From the human T2T-CHM13v2.0 reference genome, Homo sapiens, in NCBI RefSeq assembly GCF_009914755.1, contig NC_060947.1: a DNA stretch of 64,000 bases; one strand, 5' to 3'. Positions 8,952-59,449 of the stretch are shown here, one piece after another (within the stretch, counting starts at the first letter, position 1; the number at the start of each line of letters is the position of its first letter). The notes beneath the pieces are model-generated. The model made no database searches, was not told the origin of the DNA, and was given only the letters and a program-made list of their open reading frames with translations. The position numbers and the translations under genes are program-made.

Positions 8952-9476
8952 TGTATTCATTTACTAGGGCTGCCTTAACCAAGTAACACAACAGAAATGT
9001 ATTGTCTCACAGTTCTTGAGGCTTGAAATCTCCAGTGTTAGCGGGGGCTGGTTCCTTCTGAGGGGGATGAGAATGAATATGTTTCCCGACTCTCTCCTAG
9101 CATCTCATGGTTTGCTTGCAACGTTTGACATTCCTTGGCTGGTACATGCATCAACTTCATGTCTGTCTTCATCTGCACATGGCGTTCTTCCTATCCCTTC
9201 ACATCCTCTTGCCTCATGCATGTCTGTCTTCATCTGCACATGGCGTTCTTCCTATCCCTTCACATCCTCTTGCCTCATGCATGTCTGTCTCAGTGACGAG
9301 ATCTCCCCCTCTTAGAAGGACATCAGTCCCGGTGGATTAGGGCTCACCCTAATGACCTCTTTTTAACCTGATTGCCTCTGTCATGACCCTGTCTCCAAAT
9401 AAGGTTACATTCTGAGCTGATAGGAATTAGGACTCCAACATATGGATTTTTGATGTGCACAGTTTAACTCATAACA
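8952..9476 (-). mobile_element. MLT1 (MaLR) LTR containing a 61-bp tandem duplication
   Basis: MLT1-like motifs (CTAGGGCTGCC..AAC, GGATTAGGGCTCACCCTAATGACCTC). Confidence 0.7.
9158..9290. repeat. Perfect 61-bp tandem repeat, 2.2 copies
   Basis: CATGTCTGTCTTCATCTGCACATGGCG... restarts at 9158, 9219 and 9280. Confidence 0.95.
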
Positions 9477-19430: not shown

Positions 19431-20325
19431 TGTAGGGAGACCCCCTGAAACTATGGCTATGGAATAAAAGATGAAATGCTCCTGATTATTGTAAATACAA
19501 AATTGCATGCAGGATTGTGTAAAGACAATGCCAGGTTGGACTGCCAGAACGAGCCAACAGCACGTGATGTGCTTCCCCCTGCAGAGAGCCTATGAATGGA
19601 CATGCAGTCAGGGAGGTTTCACATCACCAAGATTCCTATCCCAGAAAAGCAGATGTTCATAGCTCTGGGAATGGAATGCGACCCTTGTGGAAAGCCTATA
19701 AACGGATGCACGGGGGGCACTTGTCCATATGGATAAGATAGGGCTATAAACGCCCTCATCTTGCCACGGCTCTTCTAGCCCTCTTTAGGGTTAAGGCATA
19801 CTCCCTTCTGAGAATTTCTGGTCTAACTGGTTGTCTAGCTTCACATCCTGTTTCCATGGATTGTTTGTAACTAGCTTTTGTTGCAATCGTTACTGCTGAT
19901 TAATATCTTGCTAATCATAGGTTACGGAAAGATTGTGTTTCTGTTTTAAGGCTCTGTTAGAAATTACTGATGCACACACTATATTGTAAATTCTTATCTC
20001 TGTATACTGTACTTCTACATACAAATGTACTGTACTTCTACATACAAATGTTATGTTAAAGAATTACTTCATCCCCATGTGACCATCTCACCTCATAATC
20101 AAATGACCCTAAATCCCTCACTAACCTACCCCCACCCTCACTAAACGTAATAATAAATGCTGGTATATCCAGTGCATTGTTGGCACCGCGGGACCAGAAG
20201 GCAGTGACCCACCTGGACCCAGCTTTCACTGTCTTGTGTGTGTCTATTATTTCTCAACCTGCCGATCCACCTGGGAACAAAGAGAGCCCCATTGCATTGC
20301 GGGCTGCTGGCCAGATCCCTCAATA
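19431..20325 (+). mobile_element. MER11D-like (ERVK class) solo LTR
   Basis: 895 bp starting TGTAGGGAGACCCCCTGAAAC; 6-bp TSD CACCTC at 19425-19430 and 20326-20331. Confidence 0.8.
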
Positions 20326-21288: not shown

Positions 21289-21642
<354 letters not shown>

Positions 21643-31885: not shown

Positions 31886-33934
31886 TAGGGGTAATGTGAG
31901 GGAGAAATGAGGTCATGCATGGAGAGCATTTCACACCCTGCCTGACACATGCCCAGGTCCAACAGGCTGCAGCTACAGTTATTCTAGAGCTTAGCATCAA
32001 TGTTCAAAATAGCGGAAGGCCTTCCCTCTGGTACCCAGCCATCGCGTTGAGCTTCTCCTGTCATTTTTCAATTCCAGAGTGTTTTTTGAGAGCAATTCTG
32101 TGTCGTGTGTATCACTGACGTGGGGCCAAAAACAATCGGTATGCGTGGGGATCTGAAGCTGGGAATGACCAATAGGTCAGAAAGTTCTTAGGAGTCAGGA
32201 GCAGAGGAAGCTGCATGGTCAAGGGGAATCGACGTGAGCCTTCCTGCCGTGTGTCCCATTTCCTGCGGTCTAATGAGACAGAGACATATGTATGTATGCA
32301 TCAGCTCATGCTTAGCTCTTTAATATGTACAAGGTGTTTTCAAATTCTCCCACCGTCTTTGACAGCTGAGAATTTCAGATCACCTGTTGTTCATGACTGC
32401 TGTCAAGGGGATCCTCCTTTTAGGGACACAGGAAGATTTGCCTAAAAACGTCAGGAAGCTTTGATATCTATTATTTTATTATAAAAATCAACTACAGCTT
32501 TGCTGCTATATTACTTTGGGTCTTTACTCATTCCACTGTTTATTTTAAGCCTCAGCTTGTGGATAGTTGGAGAAGGAGGGAAAATATGTAACACTGTTAT
32601 TAAATATTTTACTGTGTATGTAACATGTAGAATAAAGCAAGACTTGAAGATGTAGTATTTATGAATGCTCCAACAAATAAAATATTATTTAAATTATTGA
32701 TTTCTAATTAAACGACTTATTGTCCATAATGAATTAAAATAGTTTGTGAAAATAAATTCATTGATACTTTTGCATTTATAATTTGAGAATCATAGTAACT
32801 TTCCAAATCTGAAAATGCCTGAAACACAAGACTGCCAATCATCACAATAAAACATGAAGCCCTAGTGAACGAGCTAGTCAGGATGGGTTCCCAACAAATA
32901 GCAGTTGAAGCTCTTACTGCCATGAAATGATGAAAGAAACACGGTTTAAGTGCCATGGATAATTATTTCAATGCCAAAAGAATCATCACAGACTGTTGTG
33001 ACATGCAGAGCTTGAATGGAAATATGGCATTAAAATAAGGTGCACAAAATTAATTCTTGAATGTAATTTTTAAACACATTGCAAAATTGCTCCCTAATAT
33101 ACACCAAACCCAAAAGTGACCACTGACAAGATGAGTTTATTTCAGTTTTTATGCTGTCATTATGGAAAACACTATAGCAGAAAGTTCACCAATTTCCCTT
33201 TGGAAAGAGATATACAACCACAGCCAATAGGCTTTCCTAAAAGACAGCAGGAGCTTTTCATGCGGACTTGTTTCCCATCCATAACATACAAATATTTATT
33301 GTCCAGGGTCAATACAGCCTTGCAAATAAACAGGCTTTGAGTTATACCAAGCATGCTCATTCTTATATGGTATTTCCATATAAGAAATACAAAAGAAATA
33401 TACCACAAAATGATGGTGTTCAGGACATAGGGCAACGCCCTGTTTCTGTGGTATAGCGTCCTAGGTTTCGTAGGATTCCATAGGAGGCAGCTACAAGTTC
33501 AACTTGCAAAGCTCTGAAATCTCTTCCTAAGCTAATGAAGTGAAGCCCTGACTGCACCAAGGAAAGGATGAAACAGAACCCATTTATTGTTTCTCAAATG
33601 ATGCTACCATCTCTTCAAAGCCACCATTAATTTTAACGTCTTTAAAGCTATAAGAACAATCTATGTAACAAGTGAAAACTGCCTATAAAATTACTGCTTT
33701 ACATCTCAAACCCTTATTATATGGAAATTCATATTTTCAGAATCACATAAAAGTTTAACGTGCTATTCATTATAAGATTAAAGGGCATGAGTTATTCTGC
33801 CTGTGTAATTATTAACAATTGAAAATTAAATCGTGATAATTTTGTACTCTTTTCTTCTTAAAATAATTTCCTTTCTCCTTTTGCCTGAGACCCATGCTTG
33901 AACAATATTAACGTCTTACCCTCTAAAATAAATG

Positions 33935-34300
33935 ATTATATATAATATATAAATATGTTTTATATGTGTATTTATACATAAAATATATTTGTAAATATTT
34001 CTATATATAATCTACGAATTATATAAAAATACATATATTAATATATACATATATAGTAGGTTCTAGTATATCTAGAAAAGACCTGTGTATTTCTAAGATA
34101 TATATATAATCTATATCTATATATTTATATTTATATTATATATAAATATATAATCCATATTTCTATATTTGTATTTATATATTTTATATATAAATGTATA
34201 TAATCTATATAGGTTTGTATATAGTAAATATAGTTGTATATTACATTTTATTTACATATGCTTCTATATATTTGTATACAGTAAATTCTATATATAGAAA
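33935..34300. repeat. AT-rich low-complexity tract
   Basis: Degenerate (TA)n. Confidence 0.85.
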
Positions 34301-34713
34301 GGACCTGTGTATTTCTAACGCATGGAAATATGAAATGTACTTTTTGTCTCCTCAGTTGCGAATATAAAAAGGCTTTTTTCAAGTAGATAGATTTTTCTCT
34401 ACTTTGAATTTTTCTTCTTAAATATATTAGGTTGTAGGGAGGGGACGCTGAAAGGAAAGAGATGGAAACGATTCTTTCATCGGTTTCTATAACCGAAAAG
34501 GTATTTTAACAATGAAACCTAAGTAGGTAGAATCCAGTTCTTGGTACTTGGTGTATGTGCTAGCAAGATTGCATGAAGAAACAAACCGTGTAAGAAGCGG
34601 AGTCATCCTGTGAAGGGGAAATTTGTCTCCAGTGTTCAGCCATGACGCAATCCTTATCCTCCTGTCTGGCTAACTGTGACCTGTCCCTGTGACCTTAACC
34701 CCACGGGACCCCA

Positions 34714-37700
34714 CTTCCCTCCCTCCCCACACACCACCTATTCCTCCCTCCCTCCCTCCCTCCCCACACACCTCCTCTTCCTCCCTCCCTCCCCACACAC
34801 CTCTTCCTCCCTCCCTCCCTCCCCACACACCACCTCTTCCTCCCTCCCTCCCCACACACCTCTTCCTCCCTCCCTCCCTCCCCACACACCTCTTCCTCCC
34901 TCCCTCCCCACACACCACCTCTTCCTCCCTCCCTCCCTCCCCACACACCTCTTCCTCCCTCCCTCCCTCCCCACACACCTCTTCCTCCCTCCCTCCCTCC
35001 CCACACACCTCCTCTTCCTCCCTCCCTCCCTCCCCACACACCACCTCTTCCTCCCTCCCTCCCTCCCCTCACACCACCTCTTCCTCCCTCCCTCCCTCCC
35101 CACACACCACCTCTTCCTCCCTCCCTCCCCACACACCACCTCTTCCTCCCTCCCTCCCTCCCCACACACCACCTCTTCCTCCCTCCCTCCCCACACACCT
35201 CCTCTTCCTCCCTCCCTCCCTCCCCACACACCACCTCTTCCTCCCTCCCTCCCTCCCCACACACCACCTCTTCCTCCCTCCCTCCCTCCCCACACACCTC
35301 TTCCTCCCTCCCTCCCTCCCCACACACCTCCTCTTCCTCCCTCCCTCCCTCCCCACACACCACCTCTTCCTCCCTCCCTCCCTCCCCTCACACCACCTCT
35401 TCCTCCCTCCCTCCCTCCCCACACACCACCTCTTCCTCCCTCCCTCCCCACACACCACCTCTTCCTCCCTCCCTCCCCACACACCACCTCTTCCTCCCTC
35501 CCTCCCTCCCCACACACCACCTCTTCCTCCCTCCCTCCCCACACACCACCTCTTCCTCCCTCCCTCCCCACACACCTCTTCCTCCCTCCCTCCCTCCCCT
35601 CACACCACCTCTTCCTCCCTCCCTCCCTCCCCTCACACCACCTCTTCCTCCCTCCCTCCCTCCCCACACACCTCCTCTTCCTCCCTCCCTCCCCACACAC
35701 CACCTCTTCCTCCCTCCCTCCCTCCCCACACACCACCTCTTCCTCCCTCCCTCCCCACACACCTCTTCCTCCCTCCCTCCCTCCCCACACACCACCTCTT
35801 CCTCCCTCCCTCCCCACACACCACCTCTTCCTCCCTCCCTCCCTCCCCACACACCTCCTCTTCCTCCCTCCCTCCCCACACACCTCTTCCTCCCTCCCTC
35901 CCTCCCCACACACCACCTCTTCCTCCCTCCCTCCCTCCCCACACACCTCTTCCTCCCTCCCTCCCTCCCCACACACCACCTCTTCCTCCCTCCCTCCCTC
36001 CCCTCACACCACCTCTTCCTCCCTCCCTCCCTCCCCACACACCTCCTCTTCCTCCCTCCCTCCCCACACACCTCTTCCTCCCTCCCTCCCTCCCCACACA
36101 CCACCTCTTCCTCCCTCCCTCCCCACACACCACCTCTTCCTCCCTCCCTCCCTCCCCACAACACCCACCTCTTCCTCCCTCCCTCCCTCCCCACACACCA
36201 CCTCTTCCTCCTCCCTCCCTCTCCCACACACCACCTCTTCCTCCCTCCCTCCCTCCCCACACACCTCCTCTTCCTCCCTCCCTCCCCACACACCTCTTCC
36301 TCCCTCCCTCCCTCCCCACACACCACCTCTTCCTCCCTCCCTCCCCACACACCACCTCTTCCTCCCTCCCTCCCCCTCCCCACACACCACCTCTTCCTCC
36401 CTCCCTCCCCACACACCACCTCCTCCCTCCCTCCCCACACACCACCTCTTCCTCCTCCCTCCCTCCCCACACACCACCTCTTCCTCCCTCCCTCCCCACA
36501 CACCACCTCTTCCCCCCTCCCTCCCCACACACCACCTCTTCCCCCCTCCCTCCCCACACACCACCCTCTTCCCCCCTCCCTCCCCACACACCACCTCTTC
36601 CCCCCTCCCTCCCTCCCTCCCCACACACCTCCTCTTCCTCCCTCCCTCCCCACACACCACCTCTTCCTCCCTCCCTCCCCACACACCTCTTCCTCCCTCC
36701 CTCCCCACACACCACCTCTTCCTCCCTCCCTCCCCACACACCACCCTCCTTCCTCCCTCCCTCCCTCCCCACACACCACCTCTTCCTCCCTCCCTCCTCC
36801 CCACACACCACCTCTTCCTCCCTCCCTCCCCACACACACCTCTTCCTCCCTTCCCTCCCCACACACCACCTCTTCCTCCCTCCCTCCCCACACACACCTC
36901 TTCCTCCCTCCCTCCCCACACACCACCTCTTCCTCCCTCCCTCCTCACACACCACCTCTTCCTCCCTCCCTCCCTCCCCACACACCACCTCTTCCTCCCT
37001 CCCTCCCTCCCCACACACCTCTTCCTCCCTCCCTCCCTCCCCACACACCACCTCTTCCTCCCTCCCTCCCTCCCCACACACCTCTTCCTCCCTCCCTCCC
37101 CACACACCACCTCTTCCTCCCTCCCTCCCTCCCCACACACCTCCTCTTCCTCCCTCCCTCCCTCCCCACACACCACCTCTTCCTCCTCCCTCCCCACACA
37201 CTTCTTCCTCCCTCCCTCCCCACACACCTCCTCTTCCTCCCTCCCTCCCCACACACCTCTTCCTCCCTCCCTCCCCACACACCTCCTCTTCCTCCCTCCC
37301 TCCCCACACACCTCTTCCTCCCTCCCTCCCTCCCCACACACCTCCTCTCCCTCCCTCCCTCCCTCCCTCCCCACACACCACCTCTTCCTCCCTCCCTCCC
37401 TCCCCACACACCTCCTCTTCCTCCCTCCCTCCCCACACACCACCTCTTCCTCCTCCCTCCCTCCCCACACACCTCTTCCTCCCTCCCTCCCTCCCCACAC
37501 ACCACCTCTTCCTCCCTCCCTCCCCACACACCTCTTCCTCCCTCCCTCCCCACACACCACCTCTTCCTCCCTCCCTCCCCACACACCTCTTCCTCCCTCC
37601 CTCCCTCCCCACACACCTCCTCTCCCTCCCTCCCTCCCTCCCCACACACCTCCTCTTCCTCCCTCCCTCCCCACACACCTCTTCCTCCCTCCCTCCCTCC

Positions 37701-40700
37701 CCACACACCACCTCTTCCTCCCTCCCTCCCCACACACCTCTTCCTCCCTCCCTCCTCCCCACACACCTCTTCCTCCCTCCCTCCCCACACACCACCTCTT
37801 CCTCCCTCCCTCCCTCCCCACACACCTCTTCCTCCCTCCCTCCCTCCCCACACACCTCTTCCTCCCTCCCTCCCTCCCCACACACCTCCTCTTCCTCCCT
37901 CCCTCCCTCCCCACACACCACCTCTTCCTCCCTCCCTCCCTCCCCTCACACCACCTCTTCCTCCCTCCCTCCCTCCCACACACCACCTCTTCCTCCCTCC
38001 CTCCCCACACACCACCTCTTCCTCCCTCCCTCCTCCCCACACACCACCTCTTCCTCCCTCCCTCCCCACACACCTCCTCTTCCTCCCTCCCTCCCTCCCC
38101 ACACACCACCTCTTCCTCCCTCCCTCCCTCCCCACACACCACCTCTTCCTCCCTCCCTCCCTCCCCACACACCTCTTCCTCCCTCCCTCCCTCCCACACA
38201 CCTCCTCTTCCTCCCTCCCTCCCTCCCCACACACCACCTCTTCCTCCCTCCCTCCCTCCCCTCACACCACCTCTTCCTCCTCCCTCCCTCCCCACACACC
38301 ACCTCTTCCTCCTCCCTCCCCACACACCACCTCTTCCTCCCTCCCTCCCCACACACCACCTCTTCCTCCCTCCCTCCCTCCCCACACACCACCTCTTCCT
38401 CCCTCCCTCCCCACACACCACCTCTTCCTCCCTCCCTCCCCACACACCTCTTCCTCCCTCCCTCCCTCCCCTCACACCACCTCTTCCTCCCTCCCTCCCT
38501 CCCCTCACACCACCTCTTCCTCCCTCCCTCCCTCCCCACACACCTCCTCTTCCTCCCTCCCTCCCCACACACCACCTCTTCCTCCCTCCCTCCCTCCCCA
38601 CACACCACCTCTTCCTCCCTCCCTCCCCACACACCTCTTCCTCCCTCCCTCCCTCCCCACACACCACCTCTTCCTCCCTCCCTCCCCACACACCACCTCT
38701 TCCTCCCTCCCTCCCTCCCCACACACCTCCTCTTCCTCCCTCCCTCCCCACACACCTCTTCCTCCCTCCCTCCCTCCCCACACACCACCTCTTCCTCCCT
38801 CCCTCCCTCCCCACACACCTCTTCCTCCCTCCCTCCCTCCCCACACACCACCTCTTCCTCCCTCCCTCCCTCCCCTCACACCACCTCTTCCTCCCTCCCT
38901 CCCTCCCCACACACCTCCTCTTCCTCCCTCCCTCCCTCCCCACACACCACCTCTTCCTCCCTCCCTCCCCACACACCTCTTCCTCCCTCCCTCCCCACAC
39001 ACCTCCTCTTCCTCCCTCCCTCCCTCCCCACACACCACCTCTTCCCCCCTCCCTCCCCACACACCACCTCTTCCTCCCTCCCTCCCTCCCCACACACCTC
39101 CTCTTCCTCCCTCCCTCCCTCCCCACACACCACCTCTTCCTCCTCCCTCCCCACACACTTCTTCCTCCCTCCCTCCCCACACACCTCCTCTTCCTCCCTC
39201 CCTCCCCACACACCTCTTCCTCCTCCCTCCCCACACACCTCCTCTTCCTCCTCCCTCCCCACACACCTCTTCCTCCCTCCCTCCTCCCCACACACCTCCT
39301 CTCCCTCCCTCCCTCCCTCCCTCCCCACACACCACCTCTTCCTCCCTCCCTCCCTCCCCACACACCTCCTCTTCCTCCTCCCTCCCCACACACCACCTCT
39401 TCCTCCCTCCCTCCCTCCCCACACACCTCTTCCTCCCTCCCTCCCTCCCCACACACCACCTCTTCCTCCTCCCTCCCCACACACCTCTTCCTCCCTCCCT
39501 CCCCACACACCACCTCTTCCTCCCTCCCTCCCACACACCTCTTCCTCCCTCCCTCCCTCCCCACACACCTCCTCTCCCTCCCTCCCTCCCTCCCCACACA
39601 CCTCCTCTTCCTCCCTCCCTCCCCACACACCTCTTCCTCCCTCCCTCCCTCCCCACACACCACCTCTTCCTCCCTCCCTCCCCACACACCTCTTCCTCCC
39701 TCCCTCCCTCCCCACACACCTCTTCCTCCCTCCCTCCCCACACACCACCTCTTCCTCCCTCCCTCCCTCCCCACACACCTCTTCCTCCCTCCCTCCCTCC
39801 CCACACACCTCTTCCTCCCTCCCTCCCTCCCCACACACCTCCTCTTCCTCCCTCCCTCCCTCCCCACACACCACCTCTTCCTCCCTCCCTCCCTCCCCTC
39901 ACACCACCTCTTCCTCCCTCCCTCCCTCCCCACACACCACCTCTTCCTCCCTCCCTCCCCACACACACCTCTTCCTCCCTCCCTCCCTCCCCACACACCA
40001 CCTCTTCCTCCCTCCCTCCCCACACACCTCCTCTTCCTCCCTCCTCCCTCCCCACACACCACCTCTTCCTCCCTCCTCCCTCCCCACACACCACCTCTTC
40101 CTCCTCCCTCCCTCCCCACACACCCTCTTCCTCCCTCCCTCCCTCCCCACACACCTCCTCTTCCTCCCTCCCTCCCTCCCCACACACCACCTCTTCCTCC
40201 CTCCCTCCCTCCCCTCACACCACCTCTTCCTCCCTCCCTCCCTCCCCACACACCACCTCTTCCTCCCTCCCTCCCCACACACCACCTCTTCCTCCCTCCC
40301 TCCCCACACACCACCTCTTCCTCCCTCCCTCCCTCCCCACACACCACCTCTTCCTCCCTCCCTCCCCACACACCTCCTCTTCCTCCCTCCCTCCCTCCCC
40401 ACACACCACCTCTTCCTCCCTCCCTCCCTCCCCACACACCACCTCTTCCTCCCTCCCTCCCTCCCCACACACCTCTTCCTCCCTCCCTCCCTCCCCACAC
40501 ACCTCCTCTTCCTCCCTCCCTCCCTCCCCACACACCACCTCTTCCTCCCTCCCTCCCTCCCCTCACACCACCTCTTCCTCCCTCCCTCCCTCCCCACACA
40601 CCACCTCTTCCTCCCTCCCTCCCCACACACCACCTCTTCCTCCCTCCCTCCCCACACACCACCTCTTCCTCCCTCCCTCCCTCCCCACACACCACCTCTT

Positions 40701-43700
40701 CCTCCCTCCCTCCCCACACACCTCCTCTTCCTCCCTCCCTCCCTCCCACACACCACCTCTTCCTCCTCCCTCCCTCCCCACACACCACCTCTTCCTCCCT
40801 CCCTCCCTCCCCACACACCTCTTCCTCCCTCCTCCCTCCCACACACCTCCTCTTCCTCCCTCCCTCCCTCCCCACACACCACCTCTTCCTCCCTCCCTCC
40901 CTCCCCTCACACCACCTCTTCCTCCCTCCCTCCCTCCCCACACACCACCTCTTCCTCCCTCCCTCCCCACACACCACCTCTTCCTCCCTCCCTCCCCACA
41001 CACCACCTCTTCCTCCCTCCCTCCCTCCCCACACACCACCTCTTCCTCCCTCCCTCCCCACACACCACCTCTTCCTCCCTCCCTCCCACACACCTCTTCC
41101 TCCTCCCTCCCTCCCCTCACACCACCTCTTCCTCCCTCCCTCCCTCCCCTCACACCACCTCTTCCTCCCTCCCTCCCTCCCCACACACCTCCTCTTCCTC
41201 CTCCCTCCCCACACACCACCTCTTCCTCCCTCCCTCCCTCCCCACACACCACCTCTTCCTCCCTCCCTCCCCACACACCTCTTCCTCCCTCCCTCCCTCC
41301 CACACACCACCTCTTCCTCCCTCCCTCCCCACACACCACCTCTTCCTCCCTCCCTCCCTCCCCACACACCTCCTCTTCCTCCCTCCCTCCCCACACACCT
41401 CTTCCTCCCTCCCTCCCTCCCCACACACCACCTCTTCCTCCCTCCCTCCCTCCCACACACCTCTTCCTCCCTCCCTCCCTCCCCACACACCACCTCTTCC
41501 TCCCTCCCTCCCTCCCCACACACCACCTCTTCCTCCCTCCTCCCCACACACCTCCTCTTCCTCCCTCCCTCCCTCCCCACACACCACCTCTTCCTCCCTC
41601 CCTCCCCACACACCTCTTCCTCCCTCCCTCCCCACACACCACCTCTTCCCCCCTCCCTCCCCACACACCACCTCTTCCTCCCTCCCTCCCTCCCCACACA
41701 CCTCCTCTTCCTCCCTCCCTCCCTCCCCACACACCACCTCTTCCTCCCTCCCTCCCCACACACTTCTTCCTCCCTCCCTCCCCACACACCTCCTCTTCCT
41801 CCCTCCCTCCCCACACACCTCTTCCTCCCTCCCTCCCCACACACCTCCTCTTCCTCCCTCCCTCCCCACACACCTCTTCCTCCCTCCCTCCCTCCCCACA
41901 CACCTCCTCTCCCTCCCTCCCTCCCTCCCTCCCCACACACCACCTCTTCCTCCCTCCCTCCCTCCCCACACACCTCCTCTTCCTCCCTCCCTCCCCACAC
42001 ACCACCTCTTCCTCCCTCCCTCCCTCCCCACACACCTCTTCCTCCCTCCCTCCCTCCCCACACACCACCTCTTCCTCCCTCCCTCCCCACACACCTCTTC
42101 CTCCCTCCCTCCCCACACACCACCTCTTCCTCCCTCCCTCCCCACACACCTCTTCCTCCCTCCCTCCCTCCCCACACACCTCCTCTCCCTCCCTCCCTCC
42201 CTCCCCACACACCTCCTCTTCCTCCCTCCCTCCCCACACACCTCTTCCTCCCTCCCTCCCTCCCCACACACCACCTCTTCCTCCCTCCCTCCCCACACAC
42301 CTCTTCCTCCCTCCCTCCTCCCCACACACCTCTTCCTCCCTCCCTCCCCACACACCACCTCTTTCCTCCTCCCTCCCTCCCCACACACCTCTTCCTCCCT
42401 CCCTCCCTCCCCACACACCTCTTCCTCCCTCCCTCCCTCCCCACACACCTCCTCTTCCTCCCTCCTCCCTCCCCACACACCACCTCTTCCTCCCTCCCCT
42501 CCCTCCCCTCACACCACCTCTTCCTCCCTCCCTCCCTCCCCACACACCACCTCTTCCTCCCTCCTCCCACACACCACCTCTTCCTCCCTCCCTCCCTCCC
42601 CACACACCACTCTTCCTCCCTCCCTCCCCACACACCTCCTCTTCCTCCCTCCCTCCCTCCCCACACACCACCTTCTTCCCTCCCTCCCCTCCCCACACAC
42701 CACCTCTTCCTCCTCCCTCCCTCCCCACACACCTCTTCCTCCCTCCCTCCCTCCCCACACACCTCCTCTTCCTCCCTCCCTCCCTCCCCACACACCACCT
42801 CTTCCTCCCTCCCTCCCTCCCCTCACACCACCTCTTCCTCCCTCCCTCCCTCCCCACACACCACCTCTTCCTCCCTCCCTCCCCACACACCACCTCTTCC
42901 TCCCTCCCTCCCCACACACCACCTCTTCCTCCCTCCCTCCCTCCCCACACACCACCTCTTCCTCCCTCCCTCCCACACACCACCTCTTCCTCCCTCCCTC
43001 CCCACACACCTCTTCCTCCCTCCCTCCCTCCCCTCACACCACCTCTTCCTCCCTCCCTCCCTCCCCTCACACCACCTCTTCCTCCCTCCCTCCCTCCCCA
43101 CACACCTCCTCTTCCTCCCTCCCTCCCCACACACCACCTCTTCCTCCCTCCCTCCCTCCCCACACACCACCTCTTCCTCCCTCCCTCCCCACACACCTCT
43201 TCCTCCCTCCCTCCCTCCCCACACACCACCTCTTCCTCCCTCCCTCCCCACACACCACCTCTTCCTCCCTCCCTCCCTCCCCACACACCTCCTCTTCCTC
43301 CCTCCCTCCCCACACACCTCTTCCTCCCTCCCTCCCTCCCCACACACCACCTCTTCCTCCCTCCCTCCCTCCCCACACACCTCTTCCTCCCTCCTCCCTC
43401 CCCACACACCACCTCTTCCTCCCTCCCTCCCTCCCCTCACACCACCTCTTCCTCCCTCCCTCCCTCCCCACACACCTCCTCTTCCTCCCTCCCTCCCCAC
43501 ACACCTCTTCCTCCCTCCCTCCCTCCCCACACACCACCTCTTCCTCCCTCCCTCCCCACACACCACCTCTTCCTCCCTCCCTCCCTCCCCACACACCACC
43601 TCTTCCTCCCTCCCTCCCTCCCCACACACCACCTCTTCCTCCCTCCCTCCCTCCCCACACACACCTCTTCCTCCCTCCCTCCCTCCCCACACACCTCTTC

Positions 43701-46600
43701 CTCCTCCCTCCCTCCCCTCACACCACCTCTTCCTCCCTCCCTCCCTCCCCACACACCTCTTCCTCCCTCCCTCCCTCCCCACACACCTCTTCCTCCCTCC
43801 CTCCCTCCCCACACACCACCTCTTCCTCCCTCCCTCCCCACACACCTCTTCCTCCCTCCCTCCCTCCCCACACACCACCTCTTCCTCCCTCCCTCCCCAC
43901 ACACCACCTCTTCCTCCCCCTCCCTCCCTCCCCACACACCACCTCTTCCTCCCTCCCTCCCCACACACCACCTCTTCCTCCCTCCTCCCCACACACCCAC
44001 CTCTTCCTCCCTCCCTCCCTCCCCACACACCACCTCTTCCTCCCTCCCTCCCCACACACCACCTCTTCCTCCCTCCCTCCCTCCCTCCCCACACACCACC
44101 TCTTCCTCCCTCCCTCCCCACACACCTCTTCCCTCCCTCCCTCCCTCCCCCACACACCCACCTCTTCCTCCCCTCCCTCCCCACACACCACCTCTTCCTC
44201 CCTCCCTCCCTCCCCACACACCACCTCTTCCTCCCTCCCTCCCTCCCCACACACCTCTTCCTCCCTCCCTCCCCACACACCACCTCTTCCTCCCTCCCTC
44301 CCTCCCTCCCCACACACCACCTCTTCCTCCCTCCCTCCCCACACACCTCTTCCTCCCTCCCTCCCTCCCCACACACCACCTCTTCCTCCCTCCCTCCCCA
44401 CACACCACCTCTTCCTCCCTCCCTCCCTCCCCACACACCTCCTCTTCCTCCCTCCCTCCCCACACACCACCTCTTCCTCCCTCCCTCCCCACACACCCCA
44501 CCTCTTCCTCCCTCCCTCCCCACACACCACCTCTTCCTCCCTCCCTCCCTCCCTCCCACACACCACCTCTTCCTCCCTCCCTCCCCACACACCACCTCTT
44601 CCTCCCTCCCTCCCTCCCCACACACCACCTCTTCCCTCCCTCCCTCCCCACACACCACCTCTTCCTCCCTCCTCCCTCCCTCCCCACACACCACCTCTTC
44701 CTCCCTCCCTCCCCACACACCTCTTCCTCCTCCCTCCCTCCCCACACACCACCTCTTCCTCCCTCCTCCCCACACACCACCTCTTCTCCCTCCCTCCCTC
44801 CCTCCCCACACACCACCTCTTCCTCCCTCCCTCCCCACACACCTCTTCCTCCCTCCCTCCCTCCCACACACCTCCTCTTCCTCCCTCCCTCCCCACACAC
44901 CTCTTCCTCCCTCCCTCCCTCCCCACACACCACCTCTTCCTCCCTCCCTCCCCACACACCACCTCTTCCTCCCTCCCTCCCTCCCCACACACCTCCTCTT
45001 CCTCCCTCCCTCCCCACACACCTCTTCCTCCCTCCCTCCCTCCCCCACACACCACCTCTTCCTCCCTCCCTCCCCACACACCACCTCTTCCTCCCTCCCT
45101 CCCTCCCCACACACCTCTTCCTCCCTCCCTCCCTCCCCACACACCACCTCTTCCTCCCTCCCTCCCTCCCCACACACCACGTCTTCCTCCCTCCCTCCCT
45201 CCCCACACACCTCTTCCTCCCTCCCTCCCTCCCCACACACCTCCTCTTCCCCCCTCCCTCCCTCCCCCCACACCTCTTCCTCCCTCCCTCCCTCCCCACA
45301 CACCACCTCTTCCCCCCTCCCTCCCCCCCACACACCTCTTCCTCCTCCCTCCTCACACACCACCTCTTCTCCCTCCCTCCCTCCCCACACACTTCTTCCT
45401 CCCTCCCTCCCCACACCCTCCTCTTCCTCCCTCCCTCCCCACACACCACCTCTTCCTCCCTCCCTCCCCACACACCTCTTCCCCCTCCCTCCCCACACAC
45501 CACCTCTTCCCCCTCCCTCCCCACACACCACCTCTTCCCCCCTCCCTCCCTCCCTCCCCACACACCTCCTCTTCCTCCCTCCCTCCCCACACACCACCTC
45601 TTCCTCCCTCCCTCCCCACACACCTCTTCCTCCCTCCCTCCCCACACACCACCTCTTCCTCCCTCCCTCCCCACACACCACCTCTTCCTCCCTCCCTCCC
45701 TCCCCACACACCACCTCTTCCTCCCTCCCTCCCTCCCCACACACCACCTCTCCTCCCTCCCTCCCCACACACCTCCTCTTCCTCCCTCCCTCCCTCCCCA
45801 CACACCACCTCTTCCTCCCTCCCTCCCCACACACCTCTTCCTCCCTCCCTCCCCACACACCACCTCTTCCCCCCTCCCTCCCCACACACCACCTCTTCCT
45901 CCCTCCCTCCCTCCCCACACACCTCCTCTTCCTCCCTCCCTCCCTCCCCACACACCACCTCTTCCTCCCTCCCTCCCCACACACTTCTTCCTCCCTCCCT
46001 CCCCACACACCTCCTCTTCCTCCCTCCCTCCCCACACACCTCTTCCTCCCTCCCTCCCCACACACCTCCTCTTCCTCCCTCCCTCCCCACACACCTCTTC
46101 CTCCCTCCCTCCCTCCCCACACACCTCCTCTCCCTCCCTCCCTCCCTCCCTCCCCACACACCACCTCTTCCTCCCTCCCTCCTCCCCACACACCTCCTCT
46201 TCCTCCCTCCCTCCCCCACACTTCTTCCTCCCTCCCTCCCCACACACCTCCTCTTCCTCCCTCCCTCCCACACACCTCTTCCTCCCTCCCTCCTCACACA
46301 CCACCTCTTCCTCCCTCCCTCCCTCCCCACACACTTCTTCCTCCCTCCCTCCCCACACACCTCCTCTTCCTCCCTCCCTCCCCACACACCTCTTCCTCCC
46401 TCCCTCCCCACACACCACCTCTTCCTCCCTCCCTCCCCACACACCTCTTCCTCCCTCCCTCCCCACACACCACCTCTTCCCCCCTCCCTCCCCACACACC
46501 ACCTCTTCCCCCCCTCCCTCCCTCCCCACACACCACCTCTTCCTCCCTCCCTCCCTCCCCACACACCACCTCTTCCCCCCTCCCTCCCTCCCTCCCCACC
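34714..46600. repeat. RU2 VNTR of the CRI-S232 element (~11.9 kb, roughly 400 units of 26/29/30/33 bp)
   Basis: Unit CCCCACACA[CCA|CCT|-]CCTCTTCCT(CCCT)2-3; extreme strand asymmetry; lies immediately 3' of a VCX gene as known for S232 repeats. Confidence 0.95.
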
Positions 46601-46645
46601 ATCAGAGAACACGGAGTCACTCAGATCAATTTGCAACACATTCAT

Positions 46646-46651
46646 TTTATT
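46646..46651 (-). terminator. VCX2 polyadenylation signal AATAAA
   Basis: TTTATT on the + strand, 62 nt after the stop codon. Confidence 0.85.
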
Positions 46652-46713
46652 ATCTTCAGAATGGCAAGCACCCCGCTGGTGAGATCTCTGAGGTCTGGCG
46701 GCTGGGCCTGAAC

Positions 46714-47550
<837 letters not shown>

Positions 47551-48054
47551 TGACATCTAATGAGGAAGGCAGGGTGCTCTAATTGGAGAAAGGGAGATTT
47601 GGGTTAGCACCCCTAAAGATAGTTCCCAAACTGACATGTCGCCCCTCCTAAACTCCCCATGTTCAATTTTGGCAGATCACGTGGCACGGGAGGATATTTC
47701 CGCCACATGTTTCCCCCGGACCTCCCATTCAGTGGTACATTCTGTTCCTCCACACCTGCCATCATTACCCAGTTTCTGTATGACCTATCTAAAATCCCTC
47801 CATGCTAACTGGGATGGATGGAGGGCTATACGAAGATGTCAATCATCCCTCTCTCCTACAAATTCCTCTGCTACACCTTGAGGATCATTCACTTCTTGGA
47901 TGCCATGAAACAACTTTTCCATCTCACATACTTCTCCCAGCATCCACATAGTGCCTCACAATTTTTCATTCTCATGGTTTAAAGCACTGGCTTCCAGAGG
48001 TCAAGATCAGCAAACACACTCTCTCAGCTGGGTATCGGTATCAGGCTGGGTTTC

Positions 48055-48281
48055 GGTATCAGGCTGGGTTCCTCAGAGAAGGAGAAACTAAACCAACAGG
48101 ATATTGTGTGTGTGTGTGTGTGTGTGTAATATTATATATCATAAATATATATTTACTATCATGTAGTATTTATGAATTATATATATGATACAGTTTATTC
48201 TAAGTAATTGGCTCACACATTCACTCAATGTGGGGGTCTAGGAAGCTGAAATATATAGGGCAAGTGAGCAGGCTGGAAACT
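48055..48281 (-). mobile_element. MLT2-family LTR fragment with (TG)n
   Basis: GGGTTCCTCAGAGAA...AACCAACAGGA(TG)n...AATTGGCTCACA. Confidence 0.55.
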
Positions 48282-58493: not shown

Positions 58494-58921
58494 TGTGTGT
58501 GTGTGTATATATATATAATATGTATATATATAATATGTATATATAATATGTATATATATAATATGTATATATAATATGTATATATATAATATGTATATAT
58601 AATATGTATATATAATATGTATATATAATATGTATATATATAATATGTATATATAATATGTATATATATAATATGTATATATAATATGTATATATATAAT
58701 ATGTATATATAATATGTATATATATAATATGTATATATAATATGTATATATATAATATGTATATATAATATGTATATATATAATATGTATATATAATATG
58801 TATATATATAATATGTGTATATATATAATATGTATATATAATATGTGTATATATATAATATGTATATATAATATGTGTATATATATAATATGTATATATA
58901 TAATATGTGTATATATATATG
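58494..58921. repeat. AT-rich minisatellite of 13/15/17-bp ATATG(TG)(TA)nA units next to an MLT2-like 3' end
   Basis: Visible tandem array; TTGGTTCTGTTTCTCTGGAGAACACTGACTAATACA at ~58938-58973. Confidence 0.9.
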
Positions 58922-59449
58922 TATTCTAATACTCAAGTTGGTTCTGTTTCTCTGGAGAACACTGACTAATACAGATGACAATTGAGTTATTGATGTCATG
59001 GGTATAATTAAATTGCTTAGGTAGAGTATACAGTGAGAAGACAGGAGGTCAAGGAAGGACCTTTGAGAAATTCCAGCACATAAAAGCTCATATAGCAAAG
59101 GTTTAGTATTGGGTTTACTTAGCACTCCTACTCCTCTCCCTTCATTGTAGAACATTACTCCTGCACACACATATCTGCTTGGAAATGGACTTACACGTGT
59201 AGTTTTCTTGTCATCTTCTATTTTCTTCCTGGACTCCACCATTCTGGTAACGTTTGATGGGTTCAGCTGTCCAATATGATCCAAATAGACAATATGATTT
59301 TCTTCCTGGAAAGAACAAAATATACAACCTGATACTGAGGACCTCTCAAGTCATTGAAAGGTCTTCTGAATTATTTGAGTTCAGCAAGGGCATTTCATTG
59401 AACCTTGAATTGAAATAATTATCTCTCTAATAGGAACAAACTCAGGCTA

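What the first reader, a model, noticed from the sequence alone, without database searches (positions are those of the whole stretch)
34714..46651. G-quadruplex/R-loop field starting ~45 nt after the VCX2 poly(A) signal
Seen: on the VCX2 sense strand the longer units read GGGG-A-GGG-A-GGG-A-GGG (four G-tracts, 1-nt loops), GC skew is essentially maximal, and the array begins 46 nt past AATAAA. Established: G-rich pause sites and R-loops downstream of poly(A) sites aid Pol II termination, and such tracts can form G4, i-motif and H-DNA. Inference: RU2 may be a length-variable terminator or R-loop element that couples germline VCX transcription to array instability, and may yield a G4-rich read-through RNA.
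Basis: partly seen in the sequence, partly recalled or inferred. Interest (0 to 1): 0.7.

Follow-up and report, generated by a model that had tools for sequence, protein, structure and literature searches.

The report
Known PRDM9 hotspot minisatellite behind VCX2
This 12-kb repeat just behind the testis gene VCX2 is a known array of docking sites for the meiotic recombination protein PRDM9, tied in print to the deletions that cause X-linked ichthyosis; its G-rich, quadruplex-like look is real but is likely a by-product of amplifying a short element that related genes carry unamplified.

Summary
Observation confirmed. An 11,885-bp minisatellite (34715-46599, about 388 units of 26-37 bp, one G on the + strand) starts 46 nt after VCX2's AATAAA and holds 200 four-tract G4 motifs with 1-nt, nearly all A, loops. 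RefSeq marks it as a meiotic and NAHR hotspot, and PRDM9 binds the VCX array and activates VCX in HEK293T cells (PMC5705219). Sequence tests favour recombination over a length-variable terminator. The five paralogous arrays are 0.5-1.8 kb with the same 46-nt offset. A ~55-bp unamplified seed sits at that offset in 14 distant X paralogues (0 of 14 with the short-loop G4) and 4 of 5 SPANX copies. Divergence between X copies falls to 1% beside the array, as ectopic gene conversion would give. A-loop G4s are the weakest class in print. A modest G-rich pause role for the seed and first units stays open. The seed origin and the conversion gradient were not found in my searches.

The parts
34715..46599 (-). 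RU2 minisatellite, about 388 units of 26-37 bp; G-rich on the VCX2 sense strand; 333 PRDM9 core 13-mers (read on the + strand) and 200 four-tract 1-nt-loop G4 motifs
   Evidence: RefSeq NAHR region 34432-46719 in the hub's table; name RU2 from PMC9317125 passage
45789..45801 (+). Example PRDM9 13-mer CCTCCCTCCCCAC; coincides with the first RefSeq nucleotide_motif row
   Evidence: read against the hub's table
46646..46651 (-). AATAAA poly(A) signal of VCX2
   Evidence: annotated 3' end at 46626, 20 nt downstream
46600..46625 (-). GU-rich stretch between the annotated cleavage site and the array; likely the core downstream element
   Evidence: sequence; same place in all 6 VCX/Y copies; function inferred
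46626..47949 (-). VCX2 gene; last coding exon matches Pfam VCX_VCY (E 3.8e-45)
   Evidence: hub annotation
46761..46824 (-). 30-bp coding repeat, 2.1 copies (RU1; name recalled)
47385..47390 (-). TATATA box; likely internal promoter, with a start about 755 bp from the array edge
   Evidence: the chr8 retrocopy's 5' end maps to about 47354; use of a promoter that skips exon 1 reported in PMC5705219 section 11
34415..34714 (-). Distal unique flank homogenised among X copies: X-X divergence 1.0, 2.5, 5.3% in successive 100-bp bins, then 8.5%; X-Y 11-15%
38311..38936 (.). Longest exact internal duplication (626 bp), copy 1
   Evidence: null 132-189 bp in 20 unit-order shuffles
35439..36064 (.). 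Longest exact internal duplication, copy 2 (offset 2,872 bp)

Best explanation
The feature is RU2, a minisatellite of about 388 units holding 333 perfect PRDM9 13-mer motifs, which likely draws PRDM9 and meiotic breaks, whose repair likely reshuffles its length, likely homogenises it with the other X copies and, as reported in print, produces the recurrent STS deletion. Steps: (1) Shown: the units carry the motif, and an unamplified ~55-bp, two-unit seed sits at the same place in related genes. (2) Inferred: the seed was amplified in the VCX/Y ancestor, before the X and Y copies parted, since the Y copies hold about 0.9 kb of degenerate units. (3) In print for the VCX array, in transfected cells: PRDM9 binds strongly, lays H3K4me3 over the gene and activates it. 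(4) Inferred: breaks in the array are repaired from sister, homologue or paralogue, giving kb-scale internal duplications, the conversion gradient in the flank and, between the direct-orientation copies 1.65 Mb apart, the deletion. (5) Inferred: the G4 motifs, the skew and the 46-nt offset are inherited from the seed; Pol II would enter the first units after cleavage, but array length is likely not needed for 3'-end formation.
For: 333 core motifs in the array, 0 in the other 52 kb. RefSeq motif rows match this 13-mer (with the hub's table). Binding and activation: PMC5705219 section 11. RU2 as recombination site: PMC9317125 passage. Motif in a minisatellite at the STS locus: PMC3759717 passage. 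About 86% of units keep the core motif and 52% the G4. The copy at chrX 6.09 Mb is in the same orientation, 1.647 Mb away. It differs from VCX2 at 1 of 200 flank sites next to the array versus 64 of 1,188 at 1-2.2 kb (p=0.0008), and shares a distal variant unit that the other copies lack. 52% of array bases lie in exact repeats >=200 bp. Paralogous arrays are 1,820, 492, 1,493, 930 and 901 bp, all with the 46-nt gap. The seed has 0 of 14 short-loop G4s and 8 of 14 core motifs.
Against: PRDM9 binding was reported for 'VCX' in HEK293T cells, not for VCX2 in germ cells; I did not see the figure supplement. The flank gradient was significant for only 1 of 3 X partners (p=0.0008, 0.062, 0.15). It shows conversion near the array but not what makes the breaks. 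The amplification predates the X/Y split of the copies (X-Y flank divergence 11-15%), whereas human PRDM9 specificity is young (recalled), so today's PRDM9 probably did not start the array. The 46-51 nt spacing is kept as far as SPANX and 9 of 14 seeds with their neighbouring bases have a looser G4 motif, which fits some 3'-end role. One genome only: allelic length variation was not measured.
Confidence: 0.8

Rival explanations
1. This is compatible with the best explanation.
For: The seed is kept 46-51 nt after AATAAA in 4 of 5 SPANX copies and at the same place in 14 other X paralogues. In six paralogues homology to the VCX-type flank stops within about 25 nt after the seed, at two different breakpoints. 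G-rich pauses behave this way at beta-actin and MAZ4 (PMC3145960 passages). 965 GGGAGGG in the array (as a MAZ site, recalled).
Against: Seed identity (0.79 over 55 pairs; 0.88 over the 10 pairs that keep the flank) is close to its neighbours (0.80 and 0.85 upstream, 0.80 for the next 60 nt), so constraint is not shown. Several paralogues may be pseudogenes. No functional data.
Confidence: 0.35
3. RU2 is a neutral slippage-driven minisatellite; its PRDM9 match and its 3' position are coincidences with no effect on breaks or expression in vivo.
For: Unit variation is mostly the number of GGGA tetramers; (GGGA)n repeats are the commonest short-loop G4 class in primates (PMC6614823); the degenerate 13-mer would occur 147 times by composition alone.
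Against: Reported PRDM9 binding and activation, the RefSeq hotspot and NAHR rows, the conversion gradient and kb-scale duplications are not expected from slippage alone.
Confidence: 0.1

Closest known systems
RU2 of the CRI-S232/VCX low-copy repeat (Van Esch 2005 as cited in PMC9317125; Myers 2008 as cited in PMC5705219)
   Same: This is that element: a repeat at the 3' end of a VCX gene, an array of PRDM9 13-mers, inside RefSeq's meiotic and NAHR regions.
   Different: This allele is 11.9 kb with 333 motifs, while RefSeq's tandem_repeat row spans 45852-46740 and lists 27 motifs (probably projected from a shorter allele; inferred). The seed origin and the conversion gradient were not found in the searches.
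G-rich Pol II pause sites (MAZ4, beta-actin; PMC3145960)
   Same: G-rich sense-strand tract just after a poly(A) signal; R-loop-favouring skew.
   Different: Those are short and tested by mutation, RNase H1 and senataxin; RU2 is up to 12 kb, varies 24-fold among paralogues and is untested.
G4-L1A (G3AG3AG3AG3) motif class (PMC6614823)
   Same: 171 of the 200 motifs are this core with one extra G; the oligo folds into a parallel G4 in vitro.
   Different: Here it is embedded in a 30-33 bp unit. The class is the least stable and least destabilising, unlike C- or T-loop motifs.
VCX/Y-SPANX-CSAG superfamily cassette (Hansen 2008, cited in PMC8327908)
   Same: Shared ancestry of the gene cassette.
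   Different: The citation speaks of promoter and protein homology; here the shared part is the 3' module (AATAAA, GU-rich stretch, G-rich seed). Hansen 2008 itself was not read and may mention it.

Membership tests
RU2 / S232-VCX repeat | Tandem repeat at the 3' end of a VCX gene within a low-copy repeat flanking STS | tested here: met
   shared flanks about 85-99% identical among copies
RU2 / S232-VCX repeat | Variable length | tested here: met
   492-11,885 bp among six paralogues in one genome; allelic variation not tested
PRDM9 motif-array hotspot | CCNCCNTNNCCNC / CCTCCCTNNCCAC motif density far above background | tested here: met
   333 core motifs versus 0 outside; shuffle mean 2.2
PRDM9 motif-array hotspot | PRDM9 binding, H3K4me3 and DMC1 breaks in germ cells | not testable with these tools
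   binding and H3K4me3 reported for VCX in HEK293T cells; RefSeq meiotic_recombination_region in the hub's table
NAHR substrate | Direct-orientation paralogue with signs of ectopic exchange | tested here: met
   chrX 6.09 Mb copy, same strand, 1.647 Mb away; 1 of 200 versus 64 of 1,188 differences
G4-L1A motif class | G3AG3AG3AG3 sequence | tested here: met
   200 four-tract 1-nt-loop motifs
G4-L1A motif class | Folding in chromatin or nascent RNA | not testable with these tools
   only in-vitro data on the bare oligo
G-rich pause / R-loop terminator | G-rich sense tract shortly after the poly(A) signal | tested here: met
   46 nt in 6 of 6 VCX/Y copies
G-rich pause / R-loop terminator | Sequence constraint above neighbouring DNA | tested here: inconclusive
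   seed 0.79-0.88 versus 0.80-0.85 for adjacent stretches
G-rich pause / R-loop terminator | Pol II pausing, RNase H-sensitive hybrid, read-through on mutation | not testable with these tools
   no nascent-RNA or DRIP data available
H-DNA mirror repeat | Long homopurine mirror arms with a short spacer | tested here: inconclusive
   best arm 11 nt at spacer <=8, in 12 bins; up to 19 nt with 9-24 nt spacers

The most novel reading that the evidence does not exclude
An ordinary 3'-end element of the VCX/SPANX gene cassette was amplified into a self-renewing PRDM9 landing strip that now works as a 3' enhancer. Motif number (12-333 per copy here) and PRDM9 allele would together set H3K4me3 on a TATA promoter about 755 bp away, and so VCX dose in early spermatocytes, while the same length would set a parent's risk of transmitting the STS deletion.
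Probability: 0.2. Interest if true: 0.65.

Novelty: already known. Interest (0 to 1): 0.3.

Why it matters
The element is already tied to a common recurrent X deletion, so the main finding is not new. Two side results are useful. The T2T allele carries 333 motifs where RefSeq lists 27, so RU2 length by PRDM9 allele becomes a testable predictor of deletion rate and VCX expression with long reads. The unamplified seed in SPANX and other X paralogues shows how a disease hotspot can grow out of a gene's 3' end, and gives natural controls (seed only, degenerate Y array, short and long X arrays) for the terminator idea.

Tried and rejected
Stable read-through RNA or hidden gene in the array: no ATG, no GGT[AG]AG donor and no poly(A) signal on the sense strand; Rfam found one match in 64 kb, an SRP-like hit at 21290-21406, none in the array. 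G4 as the conserved part of the unit: rejected, since it is present in 52% of units versus 86% for the core motif, and in 0 of 14 seeds. Seed constraint test: inconclusive. The gene-side identity profile (98-100% over about 1.2 kb for X partners, 95-98% for one Y copy) was not used as evidence because coding selection confounds it; the row for the second Y copy was mis-oriented and dropped. No 13-mer was found in the gene body, 46601-48000, although PMC5705219 reports binding mid-gene. One of 5 SPANX stretches (143.51 Mb) showed no seed in the 441 bp fetched and is unresolved. In one search my pattern missed AATAAA in two paralogues where it is visible in the print-out; two other paralogues lack a canonical hexamer and one has ATTAAA. 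The original RU2 papers (Li 1992, Van Esch 2005, Myers 2008, Liu 2011) and Hansen 2008 were not read. Searches for a VCX-G4/R-loop/termination paper, a seed description and long-read RU2 genotyping listed nothing specific; I saw listings only, and subscription journals are not covered.
Full report
1. Observation. The repeat runs from 34715 to 46599 (11,885 bp; TRF about 388 units). On the VCX2 strand it has 7,872 G and 1 C and begins 46 nt after AATAAA at 46651-46646. The common units are G4(AG3)2-3-AGGAAGAGG-(TG/AG)-GTGTGT variants of 26-33 bp. 200 four-tract motifs with 1-nt loops are present, against a shuffle mean of 20; about half of the units have only three tracts. R-loop initiation clusters occur only on the sense strand (381 versus 0). 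H-DNA potential within a unit is weak.

2. Read on the + strand, the junction between units is CCTCCCTCCCCAC, the core PRDM9 13-mer. It occurs 333 times in the array and 0 times in the other 52 kb. The first RefSeq nucleotide_motif row (45789-45801) is this sequence, and RefSeq marks meiotic and NAHR regions over the array (hub's table). PMC9317125 (passages) names the 3' repeats RU2 and cites them as recombination sites for STS deletions. PMC3759717 (passages) says the hotspot motif lies within a minisatellite at the STS locus. PMC6116924 (passages) lists X-linked ichthyosis among NAHR diseases with a PRDM9 hotspot. PMC7615360 (passages) lists the VCX family among genes whose mutations were attributed to meiotic recombination. 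PMC5705219 (passages and section 11 in full) reports that PRDM9 binds very strongly at the minisatellite near the VCX terminus, lays H3K4me3 over the gene and activates it from a promoter that skips exon 1, in HEK293T cells; the authors say this is not shown in vivo.

3. Paralogues as natural controls. The genome holds five other VCX/Y copies. Their arrays are 1,820, 492 and 1,493 bp on X and 930 and 901 bp on Y, all 46 nt after AATAAA. The X arrays share unit types with VCX2 (16-21 short-loop G4s per kb); the Y arrays are degenerate (3 each, 12-13 core motifs). Gene names for these copies are not given by any search and I use positions. The copy at chrX 6.09 Mb lies on the same strand as VCX2, 1.647 Mb away, the layout needed for a deletion.

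4. Origin of the array. Searches with the gene and its flank found distant X paralogues at 139.9-151.5 Mb. In the 14 stretches examined, a ~55-bp G-rich seed of about two units follows the poly(A)-signal position, and in several the same downstream flank follows as behind RU2. 0 of 14 have a short-loop G4, 9 of 14 have a looser G4 motif within 190 nt, and 8 of 14 have at least one perfect core 13-mer. SPANX genes, located with Pfam PF07458, carry a diverged seed 46-51 nt after AATAAA (hand count) in 4 of 5 copies fetched, none with the core motif. The seed is not clearly more conserved than its neighbours, though in six paralogues homology ends just after it. The amplification is inferred to predate the X/Y split of the copies, which argues that present-day PRDM9 took over an older array rather than creating it (the young age of PRDM9 specificity is recalled).

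5. Signs of recombination. 52% of array bases lie in exact repeats of 200 bp or more; the longest is 626 bp at an offset of 2,872 bp, against 132-189 bp when unit order is shuffled 20 times. In the non-coding flank beyond the far end, divergence among the four X copies rises 1.0, 2.5, 5.3, 8.5% over successive 100-bp bins, while X-Y divergence is 11, 15, 12, 8%. For VCX2 against the direct-orientation copy it is 1 of 200 versus 64 of 1,188 sites further out (p=0.0008); the other two X partners give p=0.062 and 0.15. This is what ectopic conversion starting in the array would leave; it does not identify the cause of the breaks.

6. The transcript's end. A chr8 copy (L032, 893-1549) aligns across the intron-2 junction at about 72% identity, starts about 30 nt after the TATATA at 47385-47390 and ends 11 nt after AATAAA, followed by an AG-rich run. 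It is likely a processed retrocopy, and it holds no RU2 or seed. It is one old molecule and reports cleavage, not where Pol II stops. Pol II would enter the first units after cleavage (general knowledge), so transient R-loops there are plausible by analogy with PMC3145960 (passages).

7. G4 as driver. PMC6614823 (passages) finds (GGGA)4 the least stable short-loop G4 (47.9 C versus 63-65 C in 1 mM K+) and, with the control repeat, the least unstable in untreated yeast; a G4 ligand raised its rate 7-fold. G4 density is flat along the array and lowest in the first kb. VCY is expressed with a G4-poor array, though below VCX (PMC13616518, passages), a point that fits both readings.

8. Verdict. 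Best explanation (0.8): known RU2, a PRDM9 motif array whose meiotic breaks likely drive turnover, conversion and deletion, with G4 and skew as by-products. A weak pause role for the seed is open (0.35, compatible). The strong terminator and transcription-driven-instability reading is unlikely (0.1). Nothing specific on VCX with G4, R-loops or termination, on the seed, or on long-read RU2 genotyping appeared in the listings; the original RU2 papers and Hansen 2008 were not read. Novelty: already known. Interest 0.3.

Noticed in passing
L032:893-1549 (G000:C8, about 94.354 Mb): Likely processed VCX-like retrocopy, about 72% identical, spliced across intron 2, ATG lost, with its own 27-30 bp coding-type repeats; its 5' end fits the internal TATA promoter.
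   Followed up: partly
L031:2500-3620 and L033-L045 (G000:C23, 139.9-151.5 Mb): Fourteen diverged VCX-like 3' modules with the unamplified RU2 seed; the 150.97-151.07 Mb group may be the CSAG cluster (recalled, not tested); others may be unnamed pseudogenes.
   Followed up: partly
L030:7107-8200 and L026 (G000:C23, about 8.575-8.579 Mb): A partial copy of the distal flank (92% identical) that breaks off about 140 bp short of the array position, next to LINE-like sequence (recalled look); no array or gene seen.
   Followed up: no
window 34415-34714: X-Y divergence is higher next to the array (27 of 200) than 1-2.2 kb away (68 of 1,198; p=0.0002), which could be break-associated mutagenesis or drift of the converted X tract.
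   Followed up: partly
window 34715-46599, + strand: The array lies in an intron of the predicted + strand lncRNA LOC107985675, convergent with VCX2; that direction has no G-rich RNA and so little R-loop potential.
   Followed up: no
window 33715-34314 and 58506-58924: Very AT-rich TA-type repeats; the first lies 400 bp beyond the array and varies among paralogues.
   Followed up: no
window 21290-21406: Rfam Metazoa_SRP match (72 bits), probably an Alu-type fragment.
   Followed up: no
window 9158-9290, 20005-20051, 48027-48070: Small tandem duplications (61, 23 and 18 bp units); the last is just upstream of VCX2.
   Followed up: no
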